Counted from the first letter of the stretch, positions 55,679 through 64,000 are shown. The stretch is DNA of 64,000 nt from Deltaproteobacteria bacterium (GCA_016930835.1 JAFGGA010000160.1:138-64137); one strand, 5' to 3'. Made by a program: numbers and translations. The notes: generated by a model not told the origin, from the sequence alone.

Positions 55679-56356
55679 AAAAGGTGCATGAAGGATAAAG
55701 ATAATCAAAGCAAAAGGCAATCTGACAGAAAGACCGCATAACGTGAAGGCCGACGGGATACCCATGCAGAGACAATCAAGAGAATCTTTTCAATGATATC
55801 ACCGAAAGGATCGCACCCCGAACGCCGAGATCGGGTTTAAGGGAAGTTTTCGAGACAGCTTCTAAGCATATTCAACCTACCGCTTTTTTAGCCCCATGCA
55901 AAAAATCACCGAGCGAACGGAAAAAGTTATACCTGCCCCTTCCAAAATGCAGCTGCGTCTGCCAGCTTGACTCTGCCGACATGGCACCGCAATAATGGCC
56001 GGGGATCAATTGGATTCAGGGTCTAAAGCATGGTTTTACCCTTCCTCGAATCCCAAAATACCCACTTCTGAATTATTATTCAAAAACCAATCTATATTTA
56101 ACCAAATAAACCAAAAAAACACATCGTATAATGTACAAGTTATTCATTCCTTCGCACTAATTTAATAGAATAACCAGTAAAACCCTTGACCAATATACAT
56201 AAATAAGGTAATTCTTCCTAAGTTTTCAAAGCATTTTCTTCTCTTTATAATCAAGAATAAATAACTGATTAGATCTATTAAAGAAATGATGCGTTTGGTG
56301 GAGTCGAATAGGCCATACTCTAGGCCAAAGGGCGACAACTGGAGAGTCTTCAAAGG

Positions 56357-59300
56357 ATGACAGCGACAGCAAGCCAAATATCTGAAGGGTGTATTATTCT
56401 CAGTGCTCTCTTCAATGAGCCAATGCGCGTGGAGACTATACGAGTCAGTGGCGATGGTACTTGGACAATCGGCATTGTAGGTACACAATCCGAACGTTTC
56501 CGTAAAGTCACATTGACCGAGTATGAGATTGAAACCCTTACCATATTGGATACTCGGGTCACCTTTGATGGCGATGGCAAATTGTTACGACTTGGCCTTC
56601 AAGCCTATTCCCTTGGAATCGCGTGGGAGTTCGATCCCTATTTTGGTCTTTCCATTTCCCGAGTTGATCCATTACCACATCAATTAGAGGCTATTTATGA
56701 CTATCTCCTGAAGCTGGCCCGAGTCCGATTCCTATTGGCAGACGATGCCGGAGCCGGGAAAACCATTATGGCAGGTCTCCTCATTCGTGAACTCCAATTA
56801 AGGGGGCTAGCAGAGAGGATTCTGATTGTCTGCCCAGCCAACCTGGCTTTTCAATGGCAACGAGAGTTAAAAGAAAAATTCGATGAAAAGTTCATCGTCC
56901 TGAAGGGAAGCGATATCCGGGATCAATTCGGTGTTAACCAGTGGTTGGAACAAAAGAGAATTATCACCTCACTTGATCTGGCCAAGCGTACAGAGATTCT
57001 ACCCGGTCTTAACCAGGTTCATTGGGACCTTATTATTGTAGATGAGGCCCATCGGATGTCCTGGAGTCCACCCGCCCGAAAGACCGCACGTTACGCCCTA
57101 GGTGAACTTCTTCGAGATACTTCAGATCACATGTTATTACTGACCGCAACCCCGCATAAGGGTGATCCCGCAAATTTCTCTTTATTCCTGCAATTACTTG
57201 ATGCCGATGCCTATGCAGATGTCCGTTCCATTCGTGAGGCCATGGATCGGCGTCGCGCCCCGTTCTATCTACGGCGTACCAAAGAAGCCATGGTCTACTT
57301 TCCGGAACGGAAACTGAACGGCACCTGGGCAGCGGAAAAAATATTTACCAAACGCATCCCCCATACTGTTGCTTTTCAGATCGATGGCCCTGAATTTGAT
57401 CTTTACCAGGAAATCACCCGATTTGTAAAACGGCAAAGCGCAATAGCCGCTGCCCAGGGTGATGATCCCCGTGCACGGGCCGTGGGATTTTTAATGGCCC
57501 TTTATCAGCGCAGATTGGCCTCCAGTGTCTATGCCATGCGGCATAGCCTGGAAAATCGTGCCCGAAGATTGGAAGACGGTCTGCGACGCGCCCAGGAACT
57601 GGTTCGACTCGCGCCGCCAAGCCTTCCTGATCCGGACGAGATCGAAGAGATGGAAGAAAATGAACGTGAGCGGCTCGAGGAGATGCTTGAAGCCATCACG
57701 CTCGCCGGCAATGCAGAACAGGTGCGTGAGGAGATGGCTGAACTTCGCGACTTGGCCCAACAGGCCCAGGCGGTTGAAGACTCAGGTGCGGAAGCCAAAC
57801 TATCTAAACTCAAAGATCTCCTGCACAAGGAGGGGTTTTTCGATCATTCGGACAAGCGGCTTCTCCTGTTTACTGAGTTTAAAGATACGCTCAACTACCT
57901 GGTTGAAAATCTCAAGGCATGGGGGTTCAAAGTCGGCTCTATTCATGGCGGCATGAAGCCCGGCTCACGGAACGAGCCAGGCACCCGGCTTTATTCAGAG
58001 CAGCAGTTTCGCGAAGGGGCCATCCAGGTGCTGGTAGCCACTGAGGCGGCTGGTGAGGGAATCAACCTTCAGGTCTGCAACATCCTGTTTAACTACGATA
58101 TCCCATGGAACCCTAACCGTTTAGAACAGCGGATGGGCCGTATCCACCGTTATGGTCAACGGAAGGACTGCCTCATCTTCAATTTTGTGGCCACCAATAC
58201 CATCGAAGGCCGAGTTCTCCAGCGTCTGCTGGAAAGACTCCAGGAAATACGGAATGCCTTGGATGATGATGCGGTGTTCAACGTTGTGGGGGAGATCCTT
58301 CCGGCCGTTCATGTGGAACGTATTCTTCGAGACTAATATGCAGGCAGGCTGGGAGATGCGGATCTCGAAGAACGTTTACTTGAAAATGTAGATGAAGAGC
58401 GTTTTCGATCCATCTGTCAAAATGCCCTGGAGGGCCTGGCGTCCAAGACACTCAATCTGGAAATGCTGATCGAGCGCCGCGCCCGCGCACAGGAGTGCCG
58501 TGTCGTGCCCGAAACCATCGCCCGGTTCATCCGCGAGGCAGCCGAATATGTCCCCCTCAAGCTCAAGACATTGGACAACTTGCCCCACACCTTTGAACCG
58601 GCACGGACCCCCGTAATCCTCCAGAAATACGAGCGGGAGCCCAACTGGAAGCTACCTGCGGTGGCCGCCAGATACCCGAGATGTTCCACTGACCGCGACA
58701 CGGCTGAAAAGAACAATTTCGAGTGGGTGACGCCGGGCCATCCCCTTTTTGAGGCCGTCCGTAGATACACCTTTGAAAAAGCCGGTGAAACATTCGGTAA
58801 CGGCGCTTGCTTCTATTCCTTGCAGCACGAAGAGCCGTCCCGGATAGATTTCTATCGCGCACGCGTCGTGGACGGCATGGGTCACGTGGTTCACGAACGA
58901 CTTTTTGCCGTAGAGCTTGGGGCCAACCCCAGTCCATGTCTTCGTGAGCCGAACGTACTGGGAAATTATTTACCTGCTGACCCACCGAAAGAGCTTCCCG
59001 TAATAGCAGTTGCAGAAGAACCTTCCGCATGGTTGCACAGAAACGCCCTTGAGGCCTTTCTTGAAGAAACCCGGGAGGAGCGACTGGCGGAAGTCGAACG
59101 CATTGCCCATCACGTGGAGCTTTCGCTGACAGAACTGCTACAGCGTGCAGACGAAGAAATAGGCAAAGCCAATGAAGATAAAGACAAAGGCGTCGCTGGT
59201 GCGGAGGGCCGTCTGGCCCAGGCTGAAAATCGTCATTCTGAGCTTTTGGCCCGCCGGGAACGCCGCCGCCGGGAATTGGAATGTCAACGGTCCTTATCTC

Positions 59301-59797
59301 TCCAGGCCGTTGAACGGATCACAAGCGTGCTCATTATCCCTCATCCCGAGCGCGAGGCCCCGGATGTTCGCAGCATGCGACCAAACCCGGAGACCGAGGC
59401 CATTGCCATGCAGGTGGTAATGGATTATGAAAAGGCCCAGGGCCGCCAGGTTTATGATGTTCATGAGAAGAACCTGGGCTACGATGTCACCAGTTTGAAC
59501 ATCAATTCCGGTGAACTGCGCCTGATCGAGGTCAAGGGTTTGTCTGAAGCCAAAGGCACGATCCTGCTTACGCCCAACGAACGCCGCGTGGCCGAAGACC
59601 GGCGCGACTGCTATTGGCTCTATGTGGTCACCAACTGCAACGCTATGCCGACCATGCAGGAACCCATCAAAGACCCGGCCCGCTTCCCATGGCACGAGGT
59701 GACCAAGGTGGCCCACTTCTGGCTGGAAGTGAACGCCATGACCCGGCCCATGATGGTGAGGGAGGATGGTGTGCCGTATGGAGGGAAACGATCATGA
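56357..59797 (+). pseudogene. SNF2-family helicase fused to a C-terminal DUF3883 (PD-(D/E)xK-like) nuclease domain, interrupted by one in-frame TAA (58334-58336)
   Basis: ORFs 56357-58336 and 58463-59797 are in the same frame (offset 2106 = 702 codons), and the 42 codons between them are open. Helicase motifs are LLADDAGAGKT, IIVDEAHRM, LLLTATPHKG, VLVATEAAGEGINLQ and QRMGRIHRYGQ. The C-terminal block is GYDVTSLNINSGELRLIEVKGLSEAKGTILLTPNERRVAEDRRDCYWLYVV. Confidence 0.85.
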
Positions 59798-61332
59798 AAG
59801 TTTCAGGAAATCTCCCCACTCCTAAACAATTGAACAAGCTTCTCAAGAAAGGTGAAGGACAAAAGCTGGAATTCAAACGTTCCACAGCCGAGCTTCAAGG
59901 CTCCATGCAGTCTTTGTGTGCTTTCATGAATGCATCAGGAGGAATCGTAATCATTGGTGTTGGCCCGGATGGCCGACTTATCGGTCAGGACGTTTCCGAT
60001 TCCACCCAACAAAAAGTCGCCGCCGCATTGGCCCGTTTCGAGCCGCCTGCACCGGTTCAAATGGAAATCATTGACCTCGGGAAAGACAAGCAAGTCATCG
60101 TGCTAAGGGCAGAAGCCGGCAACGAGTCGGTTCCGTTCACTTTTGAAGGACGGGCATATGAGCGCTTGGGAACGACAACACGGAAAATGTCACAATCACG
60201 GTACGAACGACTGCTACTTGATCGTGGTCACGCGAAACGACGGTGGGAAAACCTGCCGGCCGAGGGATTAACGATAGAAGATCTCGATAGGGTGGAAATA
60301 CTACGGACTCGAGAACTGGCTATTCAACAGAACCGAATTTCACCGGATACCAGCCATGACATCGGCGACATCCTGGACCGGCTTGGACTTCGTGTGGATG
60401 GAAATCTCACACAAGCGGCACAGGTTCTCTATGGCACAAGACTTTTTCCGGACTATCCACAATGCCTTCTCAAAATGGGGCGTTTTCGGGGGACGACGAT
60501 AATTGGCGAGATCGTAGACAATCGACAGGAACACATGAACGCCTTTTCCATGGTGCGCGAGGGGATGGCCTTTCTGGAACGGACCATGCCCTTGGGAGCA
60601 AGATTCCCCGAGGGCAAGATATTTCGCGAAGATCGGTTTCCTGTTCCCCCCGATGCCCTGCGTGAGATTCTTCTTAACGCTGTTATGCATCGTGACTACT
60701 CGGACTATTCCGGGTATGTGGCCATCGTGGTCTTTGATGACCGGGTCGAGATACAAAGCCATGGCCTCCTTCCCCAGGGTGTGACGCTGGAGCAGCTTTC
60801 CGGTCCGCACCGGTCAAAACTCCGGAATCCACTCATCGCCGAAGCCTTTCACCGAACCGGTGCGGTGGAGGTCTGGGGCCGAGGAACTAACCGGGCAATT
60901 GCTGCATGTGAGCGGCATGGCGCGGCTATACCAACTTTCGAGGAGCGGCAGGGATTTCTTATAGTCACATTTAAGGCGACGATTGCCGAGGAGCAGGAAA
61001 AAATAGGCAAGCCCCCTGCAAGACCCGACCAAGTAACTGACCATGTTTCCCGACAAGTATCCGACAAGTACCCGACAAGTACCCGACAAGTCACCCTTCA
61101 AGACGCTTCCGTTTTGCAGGCTGCCATTAATCCAGCTTCACGATCCGACCTTCAACAAAGCTCAGGACTTCGAGATAGAGAGCATTTTATGAATTCGGTT
61201 TTAAAACCCCTTCTTCAAAGAGGCCTGTTGGAAATGACCATCCCGAATAAACCCCGGAGTAGTAAACAGAAATACAGGTTGACAGAAAAGGGCCGTCAGG
61301 TTCTGGAAAGCATCAAAGGGGATGCAAAATGA
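59794..61332 (+). CDS. AlbA_2 (Schlafen-type) domain + HATPase_c_4 + C-terminal winged-helix protein ('RecG-like putative DNA-binding' family)
   Basis: ATG 59794 overlaps the upstream stop (ATGA). The N-terminus is GEGQKLEFKRS...AFMNASGGIVIIGVGPDG. The central block is LREILLNAVMHRDYSDYSGYVAIVVFDDRVEIQSHGLLP...RNPLIAEAF...VEVWGRGTNR. The track start at 59614 is an out-of-frame overlap with the upstream gene. Confidence 0.85.
   Translation: MKVSGNLPTPKQLNKLLKKGEGQKLEFKRSTAELQGSMQSLCAFMNASGGIVIIGVGPDGRLIGQDVSDSTQQKVAAALARFEPPAPVQMEIIDLGKDKQVIVLRAEAGNESVPFTFEGRAYERLGTTTRKMSQSRYERLLLDRGHAKRRWENLPAEGLTIEDLDRVEILRTRELAIQQNRISPDTSHDIGDILDRLGLRVDGNLTQAAQVLYGTRLFPDYPQCLLKMGRFRGTTIIGEIVDNRQEHMNAFSMVREGMAFLERTMPLGARFPEGKIFREDRFPVPPDALREILLNAVMHRDYSDYSGYVAIVVFDDRVEIQSHGLLPQGVTLEQLSGPHRSKLRNPLIAEAFHRTGAVEVWGRGTNRAIAACERHGAAIPTFEERQGFLIVTFKATIAEEQEKIGKPPARPDQVTDHVSRQVSDKYPTSTRQVTLQDASVLQAAINPASRSDLQQSSGLRDREHFMNSVLKPLLQRGLLEMTIPNKPRSSKQKYRLTEKGRQVLESIKGDAK
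61050..61092 (+). repeat. 11-bp tandem repeat CCGACAAGTA(C/T), ~3.9 copies, inside the AlbA_2 gene
   Basis: The units are 61050-61060, 61061-71, 61072-82 and 61083-92, plus a degenerate copy CCGACCAAGTAA at ~61025. The unit length is not a multiple of 3. Confidence 0.9.
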
Positions 61333-61359: not shown

Positions 61360-61812
61360 GTGAATAAAATAAGCAACTTTAGTTTATACGGGATGGAGGT
61401 CTGGAGCCGCGGCACCAATCGCGTCATCGAGATGTGCCAGCAGCATGGTACGGTCCCGCCGGTCTTCGAGGAATGGCAGGGGTTCCTCGTTGTTACGTTC
61501 AAGGCGCAGATGGTTCCAGTTTTAGAACGGCCAGAGTCGCAGCCAGAGTCGCAGCCAGAGTCTTTGGACCGACGCGTGCTGGCATTACTCAAGTCTCAAG
61601 CGCTAGGCAAAGCAGAGATTTCCGAGCACCTCGGTCAGAAGGAAGTTTCGGGCCAGCTCAACAAGGTAATTCGCGGGCTCATGGGCAAAGGGCTGATCGA
61701 ATACACGCTGCCGGACAAACCCAACAGCCGGTTACAGAAATACCAACTGGCAAGCAAAGGACAAAGTCTCATTAAAATAGTGGAGAAAGAAGCAGGTGCA
61801 GATGAAGAGTAG
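61360..61812 (+). pseudogene. 3' remnant of a second AlbA_2/HATPase_c_4-family gene (only the last ~140 codons)
   Basis: MEVWSRGTNRVIEMCQQHGTVPPVFEEWQGFLVVTFKA aligns with VEVWGRGTNRAIAACERHGAAIPTFEERQGFLIVTFKA of the upstream gene. The C-terminal wHTH-like tail is also parallel (LEMTIPNKPRSSKQKYRLTEKG vs IEYTLPDKPNSRLQKYQLASKG). It has no N-terminal domains, and the ORF starts at a GTG. Confidence 0.7.
61531..61563 (+). repeat. 12-bp tandem repeat CCAGAGTCGCAG x ~2.7 (encodes PESQPESQPES)
   Basis: Direct reading of 61531-61563. It is in frame and sits at the position equivalent to the 11-bp repeat of the upstream paralogue. Confidence 0.9.
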
Positions 61813-61977: not shown

Positions 61978-62028
61978 GAGAACTATTTAAAGAGAACTAT
62001 TTAAAGAGAACCATTTAAAGAGAACCAT
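61978..62028 (+). repeat. 14-bp tandem repeat GAGAAC(T/C)ATTTAAA x ~3.6, abutting the DUF1016 start codon
   Basis: The units are 61978-91, 61992-62005 and 62006-19, with a partial unit at 62020-28. The ATG is at 62031. Confidence 0.9.
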
Positions 62029-62030
62029 CA

Positions 62031-62867
62031 ATGGACTCCAATGGAAACAAATTGATAGAAACAGAAGTGTCGAGACTTTTTGACCGGGTGGTTTTTATTC
62101 TGGAGCAGGCGCGAACCAATGTGGTTCGTTCGGTCAATTCAAATATGGTCATTGCCCATTGGTTGATCGGGCGGGAAATTGTTGAAGAGATTCAGGCCGG
62201 CGATGAGCGTGCGGAGTATGGGAAGAAAATCCTCGTTCGGCTTTCCGGTCAGTTAAACAAAAAATACAGCAGCGGATTTTCAGTTCCAAATCTTAGGAAT
62301 TTCAGACAGTTCTATCTCATTTATCAGGATCGTTTAATTCACTACCCGCCGGGTAGCGAATTGCAGAACGATCAAAAACATTACCCGGCAGGTAGCGAAT
62401 CTCATTTGCCGACAAAACAACACACAGCAGAGGACCCATTTAAAAGCGCTTTCAACCCTCAACTCAGCTGGTCGCATTATCGTGCCTTGATGCGGGTGAG
62501 CAATCCGGAAGCCCGCGATTTCTACGAGCAGGAAGCCGCGGAATGCGGCTGGACAAAAACGCAACTGGAACGGCAGATTCAGACCTCCTATTATGATCGC
62601 ATTTTAAGCAACAAGGGAAAACAAGGGCTATTGCCCGCCAATAGAGAGCGACTCCCCGGGGAGGCTGTTTCATCTGTTCAGATACTGAAATCCCCTTATG
62701 TTCTGGAATTTCTGGACCTCCCGGACAGTCCCGCGTTTCATGAGAGCGAACTGGAACAGGCCATTATCAGTAACCTGCAGTCCTTTTTACTGGAACTGAG
62801 TACAGGGGGACGTCCATGGAATTATTCCTTGATCGAATTTGATAGTGTGCCAGGCCTGAATGTTTAG
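62031..62867 (+). pseudogene. DUF1016 (YhcG-like) protein, N-terminal domain only; C-terminal PD-(D/E)xK nuclease domain missing
   Basis: VVRSVNSNMVIAHWLIGREIVEE...GFSVPNLRNFRQFYLIY...LSWSHYRALMRV are family blocks. After ISNLQSFLLEL (about nt 62799) the sequence becomes unrelated and stops 22 codons later, where family members normally continue with the nuclease core. Confidence 0.7.
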
Positions 62868-63435: not shown

Positions 63436-63666
63436 ATGCCAACCAATGTTCTTGACAATATCAAAGGCAGTGAGCTTCCCAAGGATTGGGCTGAAAAAAT
63501 CCAGGCAATACCCAACGAGAGTTACACTGTCACTATTCGACCACAACGAGAAAGCAAGTCCCTAAAACAGGTCATGTCTGAACTCAGCCGTAAAGCTCAG
63601 GCCCGCGGTCTGACTCCAGAAAAATTGGAAGAACTCCTCGGGGAAAAGATAACTCATATTCTCTAA
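63436..63666 (+). CDS. Putative antitoxin of the downstream PIN toxin
   Basis: 76-aa ORF whose stop overlaps the PIN gene start (TAATG). It is small and charged. I do not recognise the family. Confidence 0.5.
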   Translation: MPTNVLDNIKGSELPKDWAEKIQAIPNESYTVTIRPQRESKSLKQVMSELSRKAQARGLTPEKLEELLGEKITHIL

Positions 63667-64000
63667 TGGGTAATTTCTTGCGCTGTGTTTTCGACACCAA
63701 CGTGATTATCAGTGCCGCTCTTTTTGAGTACAGTAAACCGGCTCAAGCCCTTGAAAAGGTATTTGCTATTGGAGAGCTGCTGTTTTCAGAGGCCACAGAG
63801 AATGAATTAGAAGATACATTTTTTAGAAAAAAATTTGATCCCTATCTCACGGTTGAAGAAAGAACTGAATTTCTTCACTACTTTTTACAACAATCCGTCA
63901 AGATCCAGATAACCAGATCAGTATCAATTTGCCGCGACCCTAAAGATAACATGATTCTGGAACTGGCGGTTAGTGGCCAAGCAGATGTTATTGTAACAGG
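63666..64000 (+). CDS. PIN-domain toxin (partial, runs off the window)
   Basis: My own translation from ATG 63666 gives MGNFLRCVFDTNVIISAALFEYSKPAQALEKVF...CRDPKDNMILELAVSGQADVIVT. This has the acidic DTNV start and the D-x-x-L-ELA block typical of PIN-family TA toxins. The frame is open to the window end. Confidence 0.8.
   Translation, partial: MGNFLRCVFDTNVIISAALFEYSKPAQALEKVFAIGELLFSEATENELEDTFFRKKFDPYLTVEERTEFLHYFLQQSVKIQITRSVSICRDPKDNMILELAVSGQADVIVT

What the first reader, a model, noticed from the sequence alone, without database searches (positions are those of the whole stretch)
56357..61332. Translationally coupled SNF2-helicase/DUF3883-nuclease + AlbA_2(Schlafen-type)/HATPase_c_4 pair: candidate two-gene defence module
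The helicase-nuclease gene ends with ATGA, overlapping the start of a 512-aa protein. That protein combines an AlbA_2 domain (the fold of Schlafen nucleases), a GHKL-like HATPase_c_4 domain and a wHTH tail. The pair sits after a ~27% GC spacer in a visibly GC-richer block than the glycan cluster. Its neighbours are decayed nuclease-family genes and a TA system, which are typical defence-island features. A helicase with a C-terminal nuclease is reminiscent of single-gene abortive-infection proteins such as Hna. I do not know of a described system that pairs it with an AlbA_2/HATPase_c_4 partner. The nonsense codon in gene 1 fits the frequent inactivation of toxic defence genes.
Basis: inference. 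Interest (0 to 1): 0.65.

Follow-up and report, generated by a model that had tools for sequence, protein, structure and literature searches.

The report
Broken Hma helicase with Schlafen partner
The two overlapping genes are the start of an already described anti-phage locus (Hma, also called a BREX-related system): its helicase-nuclease gene, here broken by a stop codon, followed by a Schlafen-type RNase/ATPase gene known to ride along in such loci. This is a real but ordinary defence locus, not a new two-gene system.

Summary
Gene 1 (56357-59797) is an SNF2 helicase fused to a NOV_C/DUF3883 nuclease. It carries one in-frame TAA (58334-58336) where homologues have TAC (Tyr). Its stop overlaps the ATG of gene 2 (59794-61332), which reads SLFN_AlbA_2 + HATPase_c_4 + wHTH.

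Gene 1 is HmaA (PADLOC 2e-143), the helicase-nuclease of the Hma system, also called the Type-1 DUF499-centred BREX-related system. Its core is HmaA, HmaB (DUF1156) and HmaC (DUF499).

Gene 2 is a "Schlatpase"-HTH protein. This is the commonest prokaryotic Schlafen architecture, already reported as an accessory effector linked to BREX and BREX-related loci. Its Ex4ExK and GHKL E/N motifs are invariant in 120 homologues.

In intact relatives the order is hmaA, Schlatpase, other cargo, hmaB, (DUF8426), hmaC. The hmaA-hmaB gap is a cargo hotspot: among 61 close hmaA loci the next gene is a Schlatpase in 8-9, hmaB in 9, DUF1016 in 6, and other defence genes in the rest. Conversely, 40 of 65 close gene-2 homologues sit directly behind an SNF2 helicase gene.

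hmaB and hmaC are not in the window, and the contig ends about 0.8 kb further on. Novelty and interest are low.

The parts
56100..56300 (.). AT-rich spacer (27.4% GC) between hcp and hmaA. It marks the left edge of the defence block and holds one sigma-70-like match at 56223-56251.
   Evidence: The number of promoter-like matches in the region is no higher than in shuffled sequence.
56357..59797 (+). hmaA pseudogene. It encodes an SNF2 helicase (GAGKT at 56750-56764, DEAH at 57041-57052) fused to a C-terminal NOV_C/DUF3883 PD-(D/E)xK nuclease (domain 59396-59653; D1043 at 59483-59485; E-V-K at 59528-59536).
   Evidence: Pfam. PADLOC HmaA 2e-143 for the N part and 1.5e-27 for the C part, covering profile positions 57-1131 of 1176. 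80% and 72% identity to intact 1146-aa HmaA in L004 and L003.
58334..58336 (+). In-frame TAA that replaces TAC (Tyr660) of homologues. It is the only disruption of hmaA.
59780..59797 (+). Coupling junction: GGAGGG (59780-59785) inside the last codons of hmaA, then ATGA (59794-59797).
   Evidence: The same ...GGAGG(G/A)AAnCGnnC-ATGA junction appears in related loci. A -3 overlap at the hmaA stop is used by many different downstream genes, including hmaB.
59794..61332 (+). Intact Schlatpase-wHTH gene (512 aa). Parts: SLFN_AlbA_2 domain 59854-60192 with the Ex4ExK motif E21/E26/K28 at 59854-59877; GHKL N-box E291...N295 at 60664-60678; HATPase_c_4 60718-60972; repeat linker 61049-61091; Fic-like_C winged helix 61129-61284.
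   Evidence: Pfam. The motifs are invariant in 120 homologues. The AF2 model matches 3LMM over its full length, SLFN11/12/13/14/5 and SAMD9 tRNase domains, histidine-kinase ATP-binding domains, and the 4RGL wHTH.
61360..61812 (+). 3' remnant of a different Schlatpase-wHTH gene: the end of its GHKL domain, a PESQ repeat linker and the winged helix.
   Evidence: Pfam. tblastn gives 33% identity to gene 2 aa 357-511. 76% nucleotide identity to the 3' end of the L123 homologue.
62031..62867 (+). Truncated DUF1016_N/YhcG PD-(D/E)xK nuclease gene (PADLOC candidate PDC-S02). Only positions 2-42 of the 157-position nuclease profile remain.
   Evidence: The same family is the first cargo gene after hmaA in 6 of 61 related loci.
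63436..64000 (+). Toxin-antitoxin pair: a 76-aa antitoxin-like ORF (63436-63666) and a PIN-family toxin (63669 onward, cut by the window end).
   Evidence: NCBIfam TIGR00305 scores 58 bits against a cut-off of 29.

Best explanation
Window 56357-61332 is the 5' part of an Hma locus, also called a Type-1 DUF499-centred BREX-related system. Gene 1 is hmaA, the SNF2 helicase/PD-(D/E)xK nuclease that acts as the DNA-targeting effector of that restriction-modification-like system. Here it is inactivated by one nonsense codon, if the TAA is real.

Gene 2 is an accessory gene embedded between hmaA and hmaB. It is a Schlatpase-wHTH protein: a Schlafen-type RNase domain, a GHKL ATPase and a C-terminal winged helix.

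[quoted passage not shown] An infection cue, possibly read through the variable linker and winged helix, would then release tRNA cleavage and abortive infection. This would serve as a second line behind the helicase-nuclease.

The hmaA 3' end carries a built-in Shine-Dalgarno plus ATGA junction, which couples translation of whatever gene follows. The remnant Schlatpase 3' end, the truncated DUF1016 nuclease and the PIN toxin-antitoxin pair downstream are further, partly decayed, cargo. hmaB and hmaC are either off the contig or lost.

- **Shown:** family identities, intact motifs, conserved locus architecture, cargo variability and helicase decay.
- **Inferred:** RNase/tRNA targeting, ATP-driven oligomerisation, the back-up role, and a sensing role for the winged helix.
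For: **Identity of gene 1**
- PADLOC's best hit for both halves is HmaA.
- Hma is defined as HmaA + HmaB + HmaC (PMC8565338).
- HmaA alone protects E. coli against T4 through a PD-(D/E)xK nickase (PMC11232893).

**Locus architecture**
- Intact relatives read hmaA(1146 aa)-ATGA-Schlatpase-ABC/OLD ATPase-DUF1156-DUF8426-DUF499 (L003, L004).
- Eighty genomes from many phyla hold HmaA at 71-82% identity. hmaB lies from -3 nt to more than 8 kb downstream, followed by hmaC.
- Among 61 loci, the first ORF of at least 150 aa after hmaA is HATPase_c_4 in 9 (8 also SLFN_AlbA_2), DUF1156 in 9 and DUF1016 in 6. The rest are Fic, GmrSD, ThsB-TIR, ABC ATPases, HerA, Abi_2, HEPN and others. This matches the published finding that Hma is an embedding hotspot (bioRxiv 10.1101/2024.01.29.577857).
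- Schlafen RNase + minimal histidine kinase + wHTH proteins are reported as closely linked to BREX and BREX-related core loci in at least 1017 taxa (PMC12839542).

**Gene 2 properties and analogies**
- The Ex4ExK motif and the GHKL E291/N295 residues are invariant in 120 homologues.
- The fold matches SLFN/SAMD9 tRNase and histidine-kinase ATP-binding domains.
- The SLFN+PF13749 "Schlatpase" supradomain drives ATP-dependent tetramerisation and tRNA cleavage in RzAgo (bioRxiv 10.64898/2026.05.29.728809).
- Another prokaryotic Schlafen protein (RorSlfn5, Ig-like sensor fusion) is a phage-triggered tRNase.
Against: - hmaB and hmaC are not in the window (tblastn E<1). The contig ends about 835 nt past the window, so membership in a complete Hma system cannot be shown here.
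- No Schlatpase-HTH protein of this type has a demonstrated phenotype. The histidine-kinase-type fusions tested in PMC13056530 were not among the two constructs that protected.
- 25 of 65 close homologues of gene 2 have no SNF2 helicase directly upstream. The protein is therefore not tied to Hma.
- The nonsense codon could be a sequencing or assembly error.
Confidence: 0.8

Rival explanations
1. One reading: the helicase-nuclease and the Schlatpase form an autonomous, obligate two-gene defence module, with the helicase as sensor or motor and the Schlafen domain as effector, or the reverse.
For: - Of 65 evaluable close homologues of gene 2, 29 sit directly behind an HmaA-type gene and 11 behind another SNF2 helicase (SNF2+GIY-YIG and related). 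Most have start/stop overlap.
- Where the two genes are adjacent, their divergences are correlated (Mantel r=0.70, p~5e-4, 22 loci).
Against: - Only about 14 of about 66 close hmaA loci have any Schlafen-family gene right after hmaA. Many have hmaB or unrelated cargo at the same -3 junction.
- 38% of gene-2 homologues lack a helicase neighbour.
- The helicase gene is repeatedly reduced to a stub while the Schlatpase stays intact.
- HmaA alone is sufficient against T4 (PMC11232893).
- Correlated divergence is expected for any two physically adjacent genes.
Confidence: 0.08
2. Gene 2 is mainly a DNA-binding regulator of the Hma locus (the old COG2865 label "transcriptional regulator with HTH"), with the Schlafen and GHKL parts acting as ligand or ATP sensors rather than as a nuclease.
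For: - It has a C-terminal winged helix closely similar to 4RGL (41% identity, rmsd 1.6 A).
- It sits inside the operon.
- The histidine-kinase-type Schlafen fusions that were tested gave no phage protection.
Against: - The catalytic Ex4ExK residues and the ATP/Mg-binding E/N residues are invariant across 120 homologues.
- The same supradomain is a nuclease effector in SLFN-pAgo.
- The wHTH module is the most variable and most often swapped part. That fits a specificity or sensor module better than a conserved operator-binding domain.
Confidence: 0.1
3. The TAA is not biological. It is a sequencing or assembly error, or a minority variant, and hmaA is intact in the organism.
For: - It is the only defect in 1146 codons.
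- Sequence after the stop is as conserved as sequence before it (80% identity to L004 over the full length).
- The source is probably a metagenome assembly (a single 64.8-kb contig).
Against: - Helicase decay next to an intact Schlatpase gene is common in relatives.
- Neighbouring genes in the window are also decayed.
Confidence: 0.2

Closest known systems
Hma system (Payne et al. 2021), also called the Type-1 DUF499-centred BREX-related (BR) system (NAR 2026, PMC12839542)
   Same: - Gene 1 has the HmaA architecture (SNF2 helicase + C-terminal NOV_C PD-(D/E)xK nuclease) and is the top PADLOC hit.
- Close homologues sit in hmaA-...-hmaB(DUF1156)-hmaC(DUF499) loci.
- Cargo genes are embedded after hmaA, as published.
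   Different: - Here hmaA carries a nonsense codon.
- hmaB and hmaC are not visible: the contig ends and no remnants lie in the window.
Prokaryotic Schlafen proteins: the pSlfn HisKinase-HTH class (Nat Microbiol 2026, PMC13056530) and the "Schlatpase" supradomain (bioRxiv 10.64898/2026.05.29.728809)
   Same: - Gene 2 has SLFN_AlbA_2 with an intact Ex4ExK motif, a PF13749 GHKL domain with the E/N ATP-Mg residues, and a C-terminal HTH.
- This is the most common prokaryotic Schlafen layout.
- Its linkage to BREX and BR loci is already described.
   Different: - No member of this exact small Schlatpase-HTH class has a published phenotype or trigger.
- The mechanistic model comes from SLFN-pAgo (Argonaute sensor) and RorSlfn5 (Ig-like sensor), which use different sensor domains.
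DISARM DrmD and BREX BrxHII SNF2 helicases
   Same: The SNF2 helicase core is homologous (PADLOC DrmD 2e-115, BrxHI/II 1e-104).
   Different: - The score is below the NCBIfam DrmD cut-off (354 against 610 bits).
- Gene 1 carries a C-terminal NOV_C nuclease.
- No other DISARM or BREX genes are in the window.
Hna (single-gene helicase/nuclease abortive-infection protein)
   Same: It is a helicase fused to a nuclease, and HmaA can likewise act alone in an Abi-like way (PMC11232893).
   Different: - The Pfam architecture differs: ResIII + Helicase_C_2 for Hna (table) against SNF2-rel_dom + Helicase_C + NOV_C here.
- Hna is not among the best 25 PADLOC hits.

Membership tests
HmaA (Hma / Type-1 BR helicase-nuclease) | Swi2/Snf2 helicase core with SNF2-rel_dom and Helicase_C | tested here: met
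   Pfam 8e-18 and 2e-24. GAGKT and DEAH motifs are present.
HmaA (Hma / Type-1 BR helicase-nuclease) | C-terminal NOV_C/DUF3883 PD-(D/E)xK nuclease with D...ExK | tested here: met
   NOV_C 1.9e-23. D1043, E1058 and K1060 are conserved, plus E1075. These correspond to D1084/E1104/K1106/E1121 of Halomonas HmaA.
HmaA (Hma / Type-1 BR helicase-nuclease) | Match to the curated HmaA profile over its full length | tested here: met
   PDLC00659: 2e-143 (profile 57-664) and 1.5e-27 (profile 683-1131), the best hit for both halves.
HmaA (Hma / Type-1 BR helicase-nuclease) | Uninterrupted ORF | tested here: not met
   TAA at codon 660, where homologues have TAC. It is a pseudogene unless the TAA is a sequencing error.
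Complete Hma system | hmaB (DUF1156 methyltransferase) in the same locus | tested here: not met
   No tblastn hit in the whole window at E<1. The contig extends only about 835 nt further, so presence beyond the contig cannot be tested. hmaA-hmaB gaps reach more than 8 kb in relatives.
Complete Hma system | hmaC (DUF499 ATPase) in the same locus | tested here: not met
   Only a chance-level hit (E=0.14) elsewhere in the window. The same contig-end caveat applies.
Prokaryotic Schlafen / Schlatpase-HTH | SLFN_AlbA_2 domain with the Ex4(E/D)xK catalytic motif | tested here: met
   PF04326 2e-19. E21-GQKL-E26-F-K28 is invariant in 120 homologues. Foldseek hits SLFN11/12/13/14/5 and SAMD9 tRNase domains.
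Prokaryotic Schlafen / Schlatpase-HTH | GHKL ATPase (PF13749) with the N-box Glu/Asn that bind ATP-Mg | tested here: met
   PF13749 9e-22. E291 and N295 are invariant and the G-boxes are conserved. Foldseek hits histidine-kinase and PDK ATP-binding domains.
Prokaryotic Schlafen / Schlatpase-HTH | C-terminal helix-turn-helix | tested here: met
   Fic-like_C 6e-17. 4RGL match: 41% identity, rmsd 1.6 A.
Prokaryotic Schlafen / Schlatpase-HTH | tRNA/RNA cleavage and ATP-dependent oligomerisation | not testable with these tools
   Biochemistry is required. This is inferred from RzAgo and RorSlfn5.
DISARM DrmD | Score above the curated equivalog cut-off, with DrmA/B/C or DrmMI/II neighbours | tested here: not met
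   NF038317 scores 354 bits against a cut-off of 610. No DISARM partners lie in 52-64 kb.
Hna | ResIII + Helicase_C_2 architecture; stand-alone gene | tested here: not met
   Pfam finds Helicase_C, SNF2-rel_dom and NOV_C instead. Homologues are in operons with hmaB and hmaC.

The most novel reading that the evidence does not exclude
This Schlatpase-wHTH subfamily may be more than passive cargo. It could be a dedicated guard of SNF2 helicase-nucleases in Hma/BR loci. It is translationally coupled to two unrelated helicase-nuclease architectures (NOV_C and GIY-YIG) in 40 of 65 loci, and it co-diverges with HmaA. In this reading it would be activated when the helicase effector is inhibited or lost, so that decayed loci such as this one retain a self-sufficient abortive-infection gene. 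The swappable tetrapeptide-repeat linker and wHTH would set trigger specificity.
Probability: 0.15. Interest if true: 0.5.

Novelty: already known. Interest (0 to 1): 0.18.

Why it matters
For annotation, the region should be labelled an incomplete or decayed Hma (Type-1 BREX-related) locus with an embedded Schlafen-GHKL-wHTH accessory gene, not a new system.

The modest added value lies in four comparative observations:
- In this highly conserved, widely transferred HmaA clade, the Schlatpase is the commonest first cargo gene.
- The hmaA 3' end provides a ready-made SD+ATGA docking junction for whatever gene follows.
- The helicase gene repeatedly decays while the Schlatpase persists.
- Schlatpase genes are replaced by recombination that leaves 3' remnants.

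These patterns could guide an experimental test of the still uncharacterised Schlatpase-HTH class, the most abundant prokaryotic Schlafen type.

Tried and rejected
- An exact-sequence look-up of gene 2 for more flanking DNA found nothing. The homology search showed that the source contig is only 64,835 nt, so hmaB and hmaC cannot be sought downstream.
- The supplements of Liu 2024 are not held, so its neighbour-Pfam tables could not be checked.
- PADLOC gives gene 2 only weak hits. The pAgo hit at 5e-6 is explained by SLFN-GHKL-pAgo fusions. Gene 2 is therefore not a PADLOC v2 candidate family.
- NCBIfam has no model for gene 2, the nuclease half of gene 1, or DUF8426.
- A sequence search of the PDB gave only partial hits, 4RGL and 3LMM. 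The AF2 model is of moderate quality (pLDDT 71, pTM 0.41), with weak inter-domain geometry and a weak ATP-lid region. Only domain-level fold matches are used.
- No DNA repeats link gene 2 to the downstream remnant, and there are no flanking direct or inverted repeats or a tRNA that would mark an integration site.
- Promoter and terminator scans were not above the shuffled background.
- I considered whether the Schlatpase remnants form a shufflon-like switching system. I rejected this because the remnants are in direct orientation, share no DNA repeats with gene 2, and have no recombinase nearby.

Full report
**Observation**

A single reading frame runs from ATG 56357 to TGA 59795-59797. It has one in-frame TAA at 58334-58336. 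The ATGA at 59794-59797 overlaps the start of a 512-aa ORF ending at 61332.

Pfam places SNF2-rel_dom/ResIII/Helicase_C in the first 659 codons and NOV_C (=DUF3883, PD-(D/E)xK clan) near the C-terminus. In gene 2 it places SLFN_AlbA_2 (aa 21-133), HATPase_c_4 (aa 309-393) and a Fic-like_C winged helix (aa 446-497).

The AT-rich spacer (27.4% GC over 56100-56300) and the higher GC of the two genes (53% and 52% against 45% for the window) are real. The upstream hcp gene is equally GC-rich.

Downstream lie three further features:
- a 3' remnant of a second gene of the same family (61360-61812);
- a truncated DUF1016/YhcG nuclease gene (62031-62867);
- an antitoxin plus PIN toxin pair (63436->64000).

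**What gene 1 is**

PADLOC's best match for both halves is HmaA: PDLC00659, 2e-143 and 1.5e-27, together covering profile positions 57-1131 of 1176. DrmD and BrxH match only through the shared SNF2 core. The NCBIfam DrmD score is below its cut-off, 354 against 610 bits.

Hma was defined as a three-gene candidate system of helicase HmaA, methylase HmaB and ATPase HmaC, found in 26 phyla (PMC8565338). In Halomonas meridiana, HmaA (SNF2 + NOV_C) alone protects E. coli from T4 in an Abi-like manner, and protection needs its PD-(D/E)xK nickase residues. HmaB is a DUF1156 protein and HmaC a DUF499 ATPase (PMC11232893).

A 2026 comparative study renames these loci Type-1 DUF499-centred BREX-related systems. 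It interprets them as restriction-modification-like: a methyltransferase marks self DNA, the DUF499 ATPase scans, and the helicase-REase restricts (PMC12839542).

The window's protein keeps GAGKT, DEAH and D1043/E1058-V-K1060/E1075. It is 80% and 72% identical to intact 1146-aa HmaA proteins. In both of those the stop position is TAC (Tyr), so the defect is a single C->A change.

**What gene 2 is**

Gene 2 has very many close homologues, at 59-85% identity across Acidobacteriota, Verrucomicrobiota, Nitrospirota, Planctomycetota, Thermodesulfobacteriota and others. They are usually mislabelled "ATP-dependent DNA helicase RecG".

The Schlafen catalytic motif Ex4(E/D)xK is present as E21-GQKL-E26-F-K28 and is invariant in 120 homologues. 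So are the GHKL N-box residues E291 and N295 and the G-box glycines.

An AlphaFold2 model (pLDDT 71) gives these matches (sequence-level hits):
- the uncharacterised protein 3LMM over the full length;
- SLFN11/12/13/14/5 and SAMD9 tRNase domains for the N-terminal domain;
- histidine-kinase and PDK ATP-binding domains for the middle;
- the C-terminal winged helix of Fic protein 4RGL (41% identity, rmsd 1.6 A).

This layout is the second most frequent prokaryotic Schlafen class, "HisKinase-HTH", at 19.2% of 5,930 proteins. It carries the "Schlatpase" supradomain found in 58.6% of 103,533 prokaryotic SLFN proteins, most of them small with or without a C-terminal HTH. In the Schlafen-Argonaute fusion RzAgo, ATP binding by this GHKL domain (E314, N318) drives tetramerisation. 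That reconstitutes the Schlafen nuclease and leads to tRNA cleavage and abortive infection.

Another prokaryotic Schlafen, RorSlfn5, is a phage-triggered tRNase. The histidine-kinase-type fusions tested in the same study were not among the two constructs that protected.

**Is the pair a unit?**

*From gene 2 outward.* The nearest homologues sit in loci that read hmaA(1146 aa)-ATGA-Schlatpase-ABC/OLD ATPase-DUF1156-DUF8426-DUF499 (L003, L004). In one case the Schlatpase sits behind an 89-codon hmaA stub (L001/L002).

*From hmaA outward.* Eighty genomes from many phyla carry HmaA at 71-82% identity.
- hmaB follows at distances from -3 nt (direct ATGA overlap; L028, L051) to more than 8 kb, usually followed by hmaC.
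- A Schlafen-family gene lies right after hmaA in about 14 of about 66 loci with enough downstream sequence. Most of these are only 24-34% identical to gene 2. In a few more loci one lies elsewhere in the gap.
- Pfam scanning of the first ORF of at least 150 aa after hmaA in 61 loci gave HATPase_c_4 in 9 (SLFN_AlbA_2 in 8), DUF1156 in 9, DUF1016_N in 6, Fic in 4, and GmrSD_N, ThsB_TIR and DUF4062 in 3 each. ABC ATPases, HerA/FtsK, Abi_2, AIPR, HEPN and others make up the rest.

This is the published "embedding" behaviour of Hma loci. The specific linkage of Schlafen/histidine-kinase/wHTH proteins to BREX and BR core loci, in at least 1017 taxa, is also published.

*From close gene-2 homologues in metagenomes.* Of 65 evaluable loci:
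- 29 lie directly behind an HmaA-type gene;
- 11 lie behind another SNF2 helicase (SNF2+GIY-YIG and relatives);
- 25 have no SNF2 helicase directly upstream; neighbours include a reverse transcriptase, an AAA_14/DUF4143 ATPase and ankyrin-repeat proteins.

The junction ...GGAGG(G/A)AAnCGnnC-ATGA is conserved. However, the -3 overlap at the hmaA stop is used by many unrelated downstream genes. Where HmaA and this Schlatpase are adjacent, their divergences correlate (Mantel r=0.70, p~5e-4, 22 loci). That shows co-inheritance, which is expected for neighbouring genes.

**Conclusion on the pair**

The adjacency is real and recurrent, but it is neither obligatory nor exclusive. The pair is the first two genes of a larger, already named system, with gene 2 as one of many interchangeable accessory genes.

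In the window, hmaB and hmaC are absent. The contig ends about 835 nt beyond the window. Whether the locus continues off-contig or is an orphaned remnant cannot be decided. The DUF1016 nuclease downstream belongs to another family commonly embedded after hmaA. This fits the view that 59.8-64 kb is cargo space.

**Mechanism (inferred)**

- HmaA translocates on DNA and nicks or cuts foreign DNA. In the full system it is guided by the DUF499 ATPase and held off self DNA by DUF1156 methylation.
- The Schlatpase binds ATP through its GHKL domain, oligomerises to assemble Schlafen active sites, and on an infection cue cleaves tRNA to abort infection.
- The variable tetrapeptide-repeat linker and winged helix are the best candidates for a specificity or sensor module.
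- With the TAA in place, ribosomes stop 1.46 kb before gene 2. Coupling is then lost, and gene 2 must rely on its own GGAGGG. Polarity may lower its expression.

**Decay**

Helicase genes reduced to stubs or frameshifted next to an intact Schlatpase recur in relatives:
- L086/L088, L122, L124 and L154 have hmaA stubs;
- L092 has a frameshift;
- L100 and L131 have SNF2-GIY-YIG stubs;
- L123 keeps only an N-terminal stub.

A sequencing error in this single codon still cannot be excluded.

**Verdict**

Both genes, and their association, fall within described systems: Hma/Type-1 BR and prokaryotic Schlafen "Schlatpase"-HTH accessory effectors. Novelty is low, and the instance is probably defective and incomplete.

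The unresolved point of some interest is whether this Schlatpase subfamily has a specific functional tie to SNF2 helicase-nucleases, and what triggers it. No member of the class has yet been characterised experimentally.

Noticed in passing
L086/L088 (=L001/L002), L122, L124, L154, L092, L100, L131, L123; window 58334-58336: The SNF2 helicase gene 5' of an intact Schlatpase-wHTH gene is repeatedly decayed. Cases include stubs of 41-161 codons and a frameshift. The window's nonsense codon fits this pattern.
   Followed up: partly
window 61360-61812; L004 6430-6726; L033 19611-20396; L124 2572-2787; L141 2140-2837: 3' remnants (end of GHKL domain, linker, wHTH) of other Schlatpase genes lie directly after the intact gene. 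Nucleotide similarity among homologues stops at about nt 1200 of 1539. This suggests gene replacement by recombination within the conserved part, with swapping of the C-terminal module.
   Followed up: partly
window 61049-61091: The linker before the winged helix is built of 12-nt (tetrapeptide) tandem repeats in homologues (TPQV, PTQS, STQK, PESQ). In the window, three to four 11-nt units pass through all three reading frames (SRQV/SDKY/PTST/RQV) and return to frame. Loss or gain of one unit would cut off the wHTH.
   Followed up: partly
window 59780-59797 and the hmaA 3' ends of L003-L158: The last codons of hmaA encode GGAGG followed by ATGA. The same -3 overlap is used by many different downstream genes, including hmaB itself, like a fixed docking junction for cargo.
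   Followed up: partly
L107 690-3845, L125 263-3166, L126 218-3088: A second class of SNF2 helicases, about 950-1050 aa, precedes close homologues of gene 2 with overlapping stop and start. One carries a GIY-YIG nuclease instead of NOV_C. Some of these loci also carry DUF1156- and DUF499-like genes downstream.
   Followed up: partly
L003 15033-15995, L004 12189-13154 and about 12 further loci: A DUF8426 gene of about 320 aa sits between hmaB and hmaC in a subset of loci of this HmaA clade. It is not mentioned in the Hma/BR papers read here and has no NCBIfam model.
   Followed up: no
window 62031-62867: A DUF1016_N/YhcG nuclease gene (PADLOC candidate PDC-S02) is truncated after 42 of the 157 positions of its nuclease profile. 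The same family is the first gene after hmaA in 6 of 61 related loci.
   Followed up: partly
window 61978-62028: Three overlapping copies of a 14-nt-period tandem repeat (GAGAACTATTTAAA) lie just upstream of the DUF1016 gene start. Their function is unknown.
   Followed up: no
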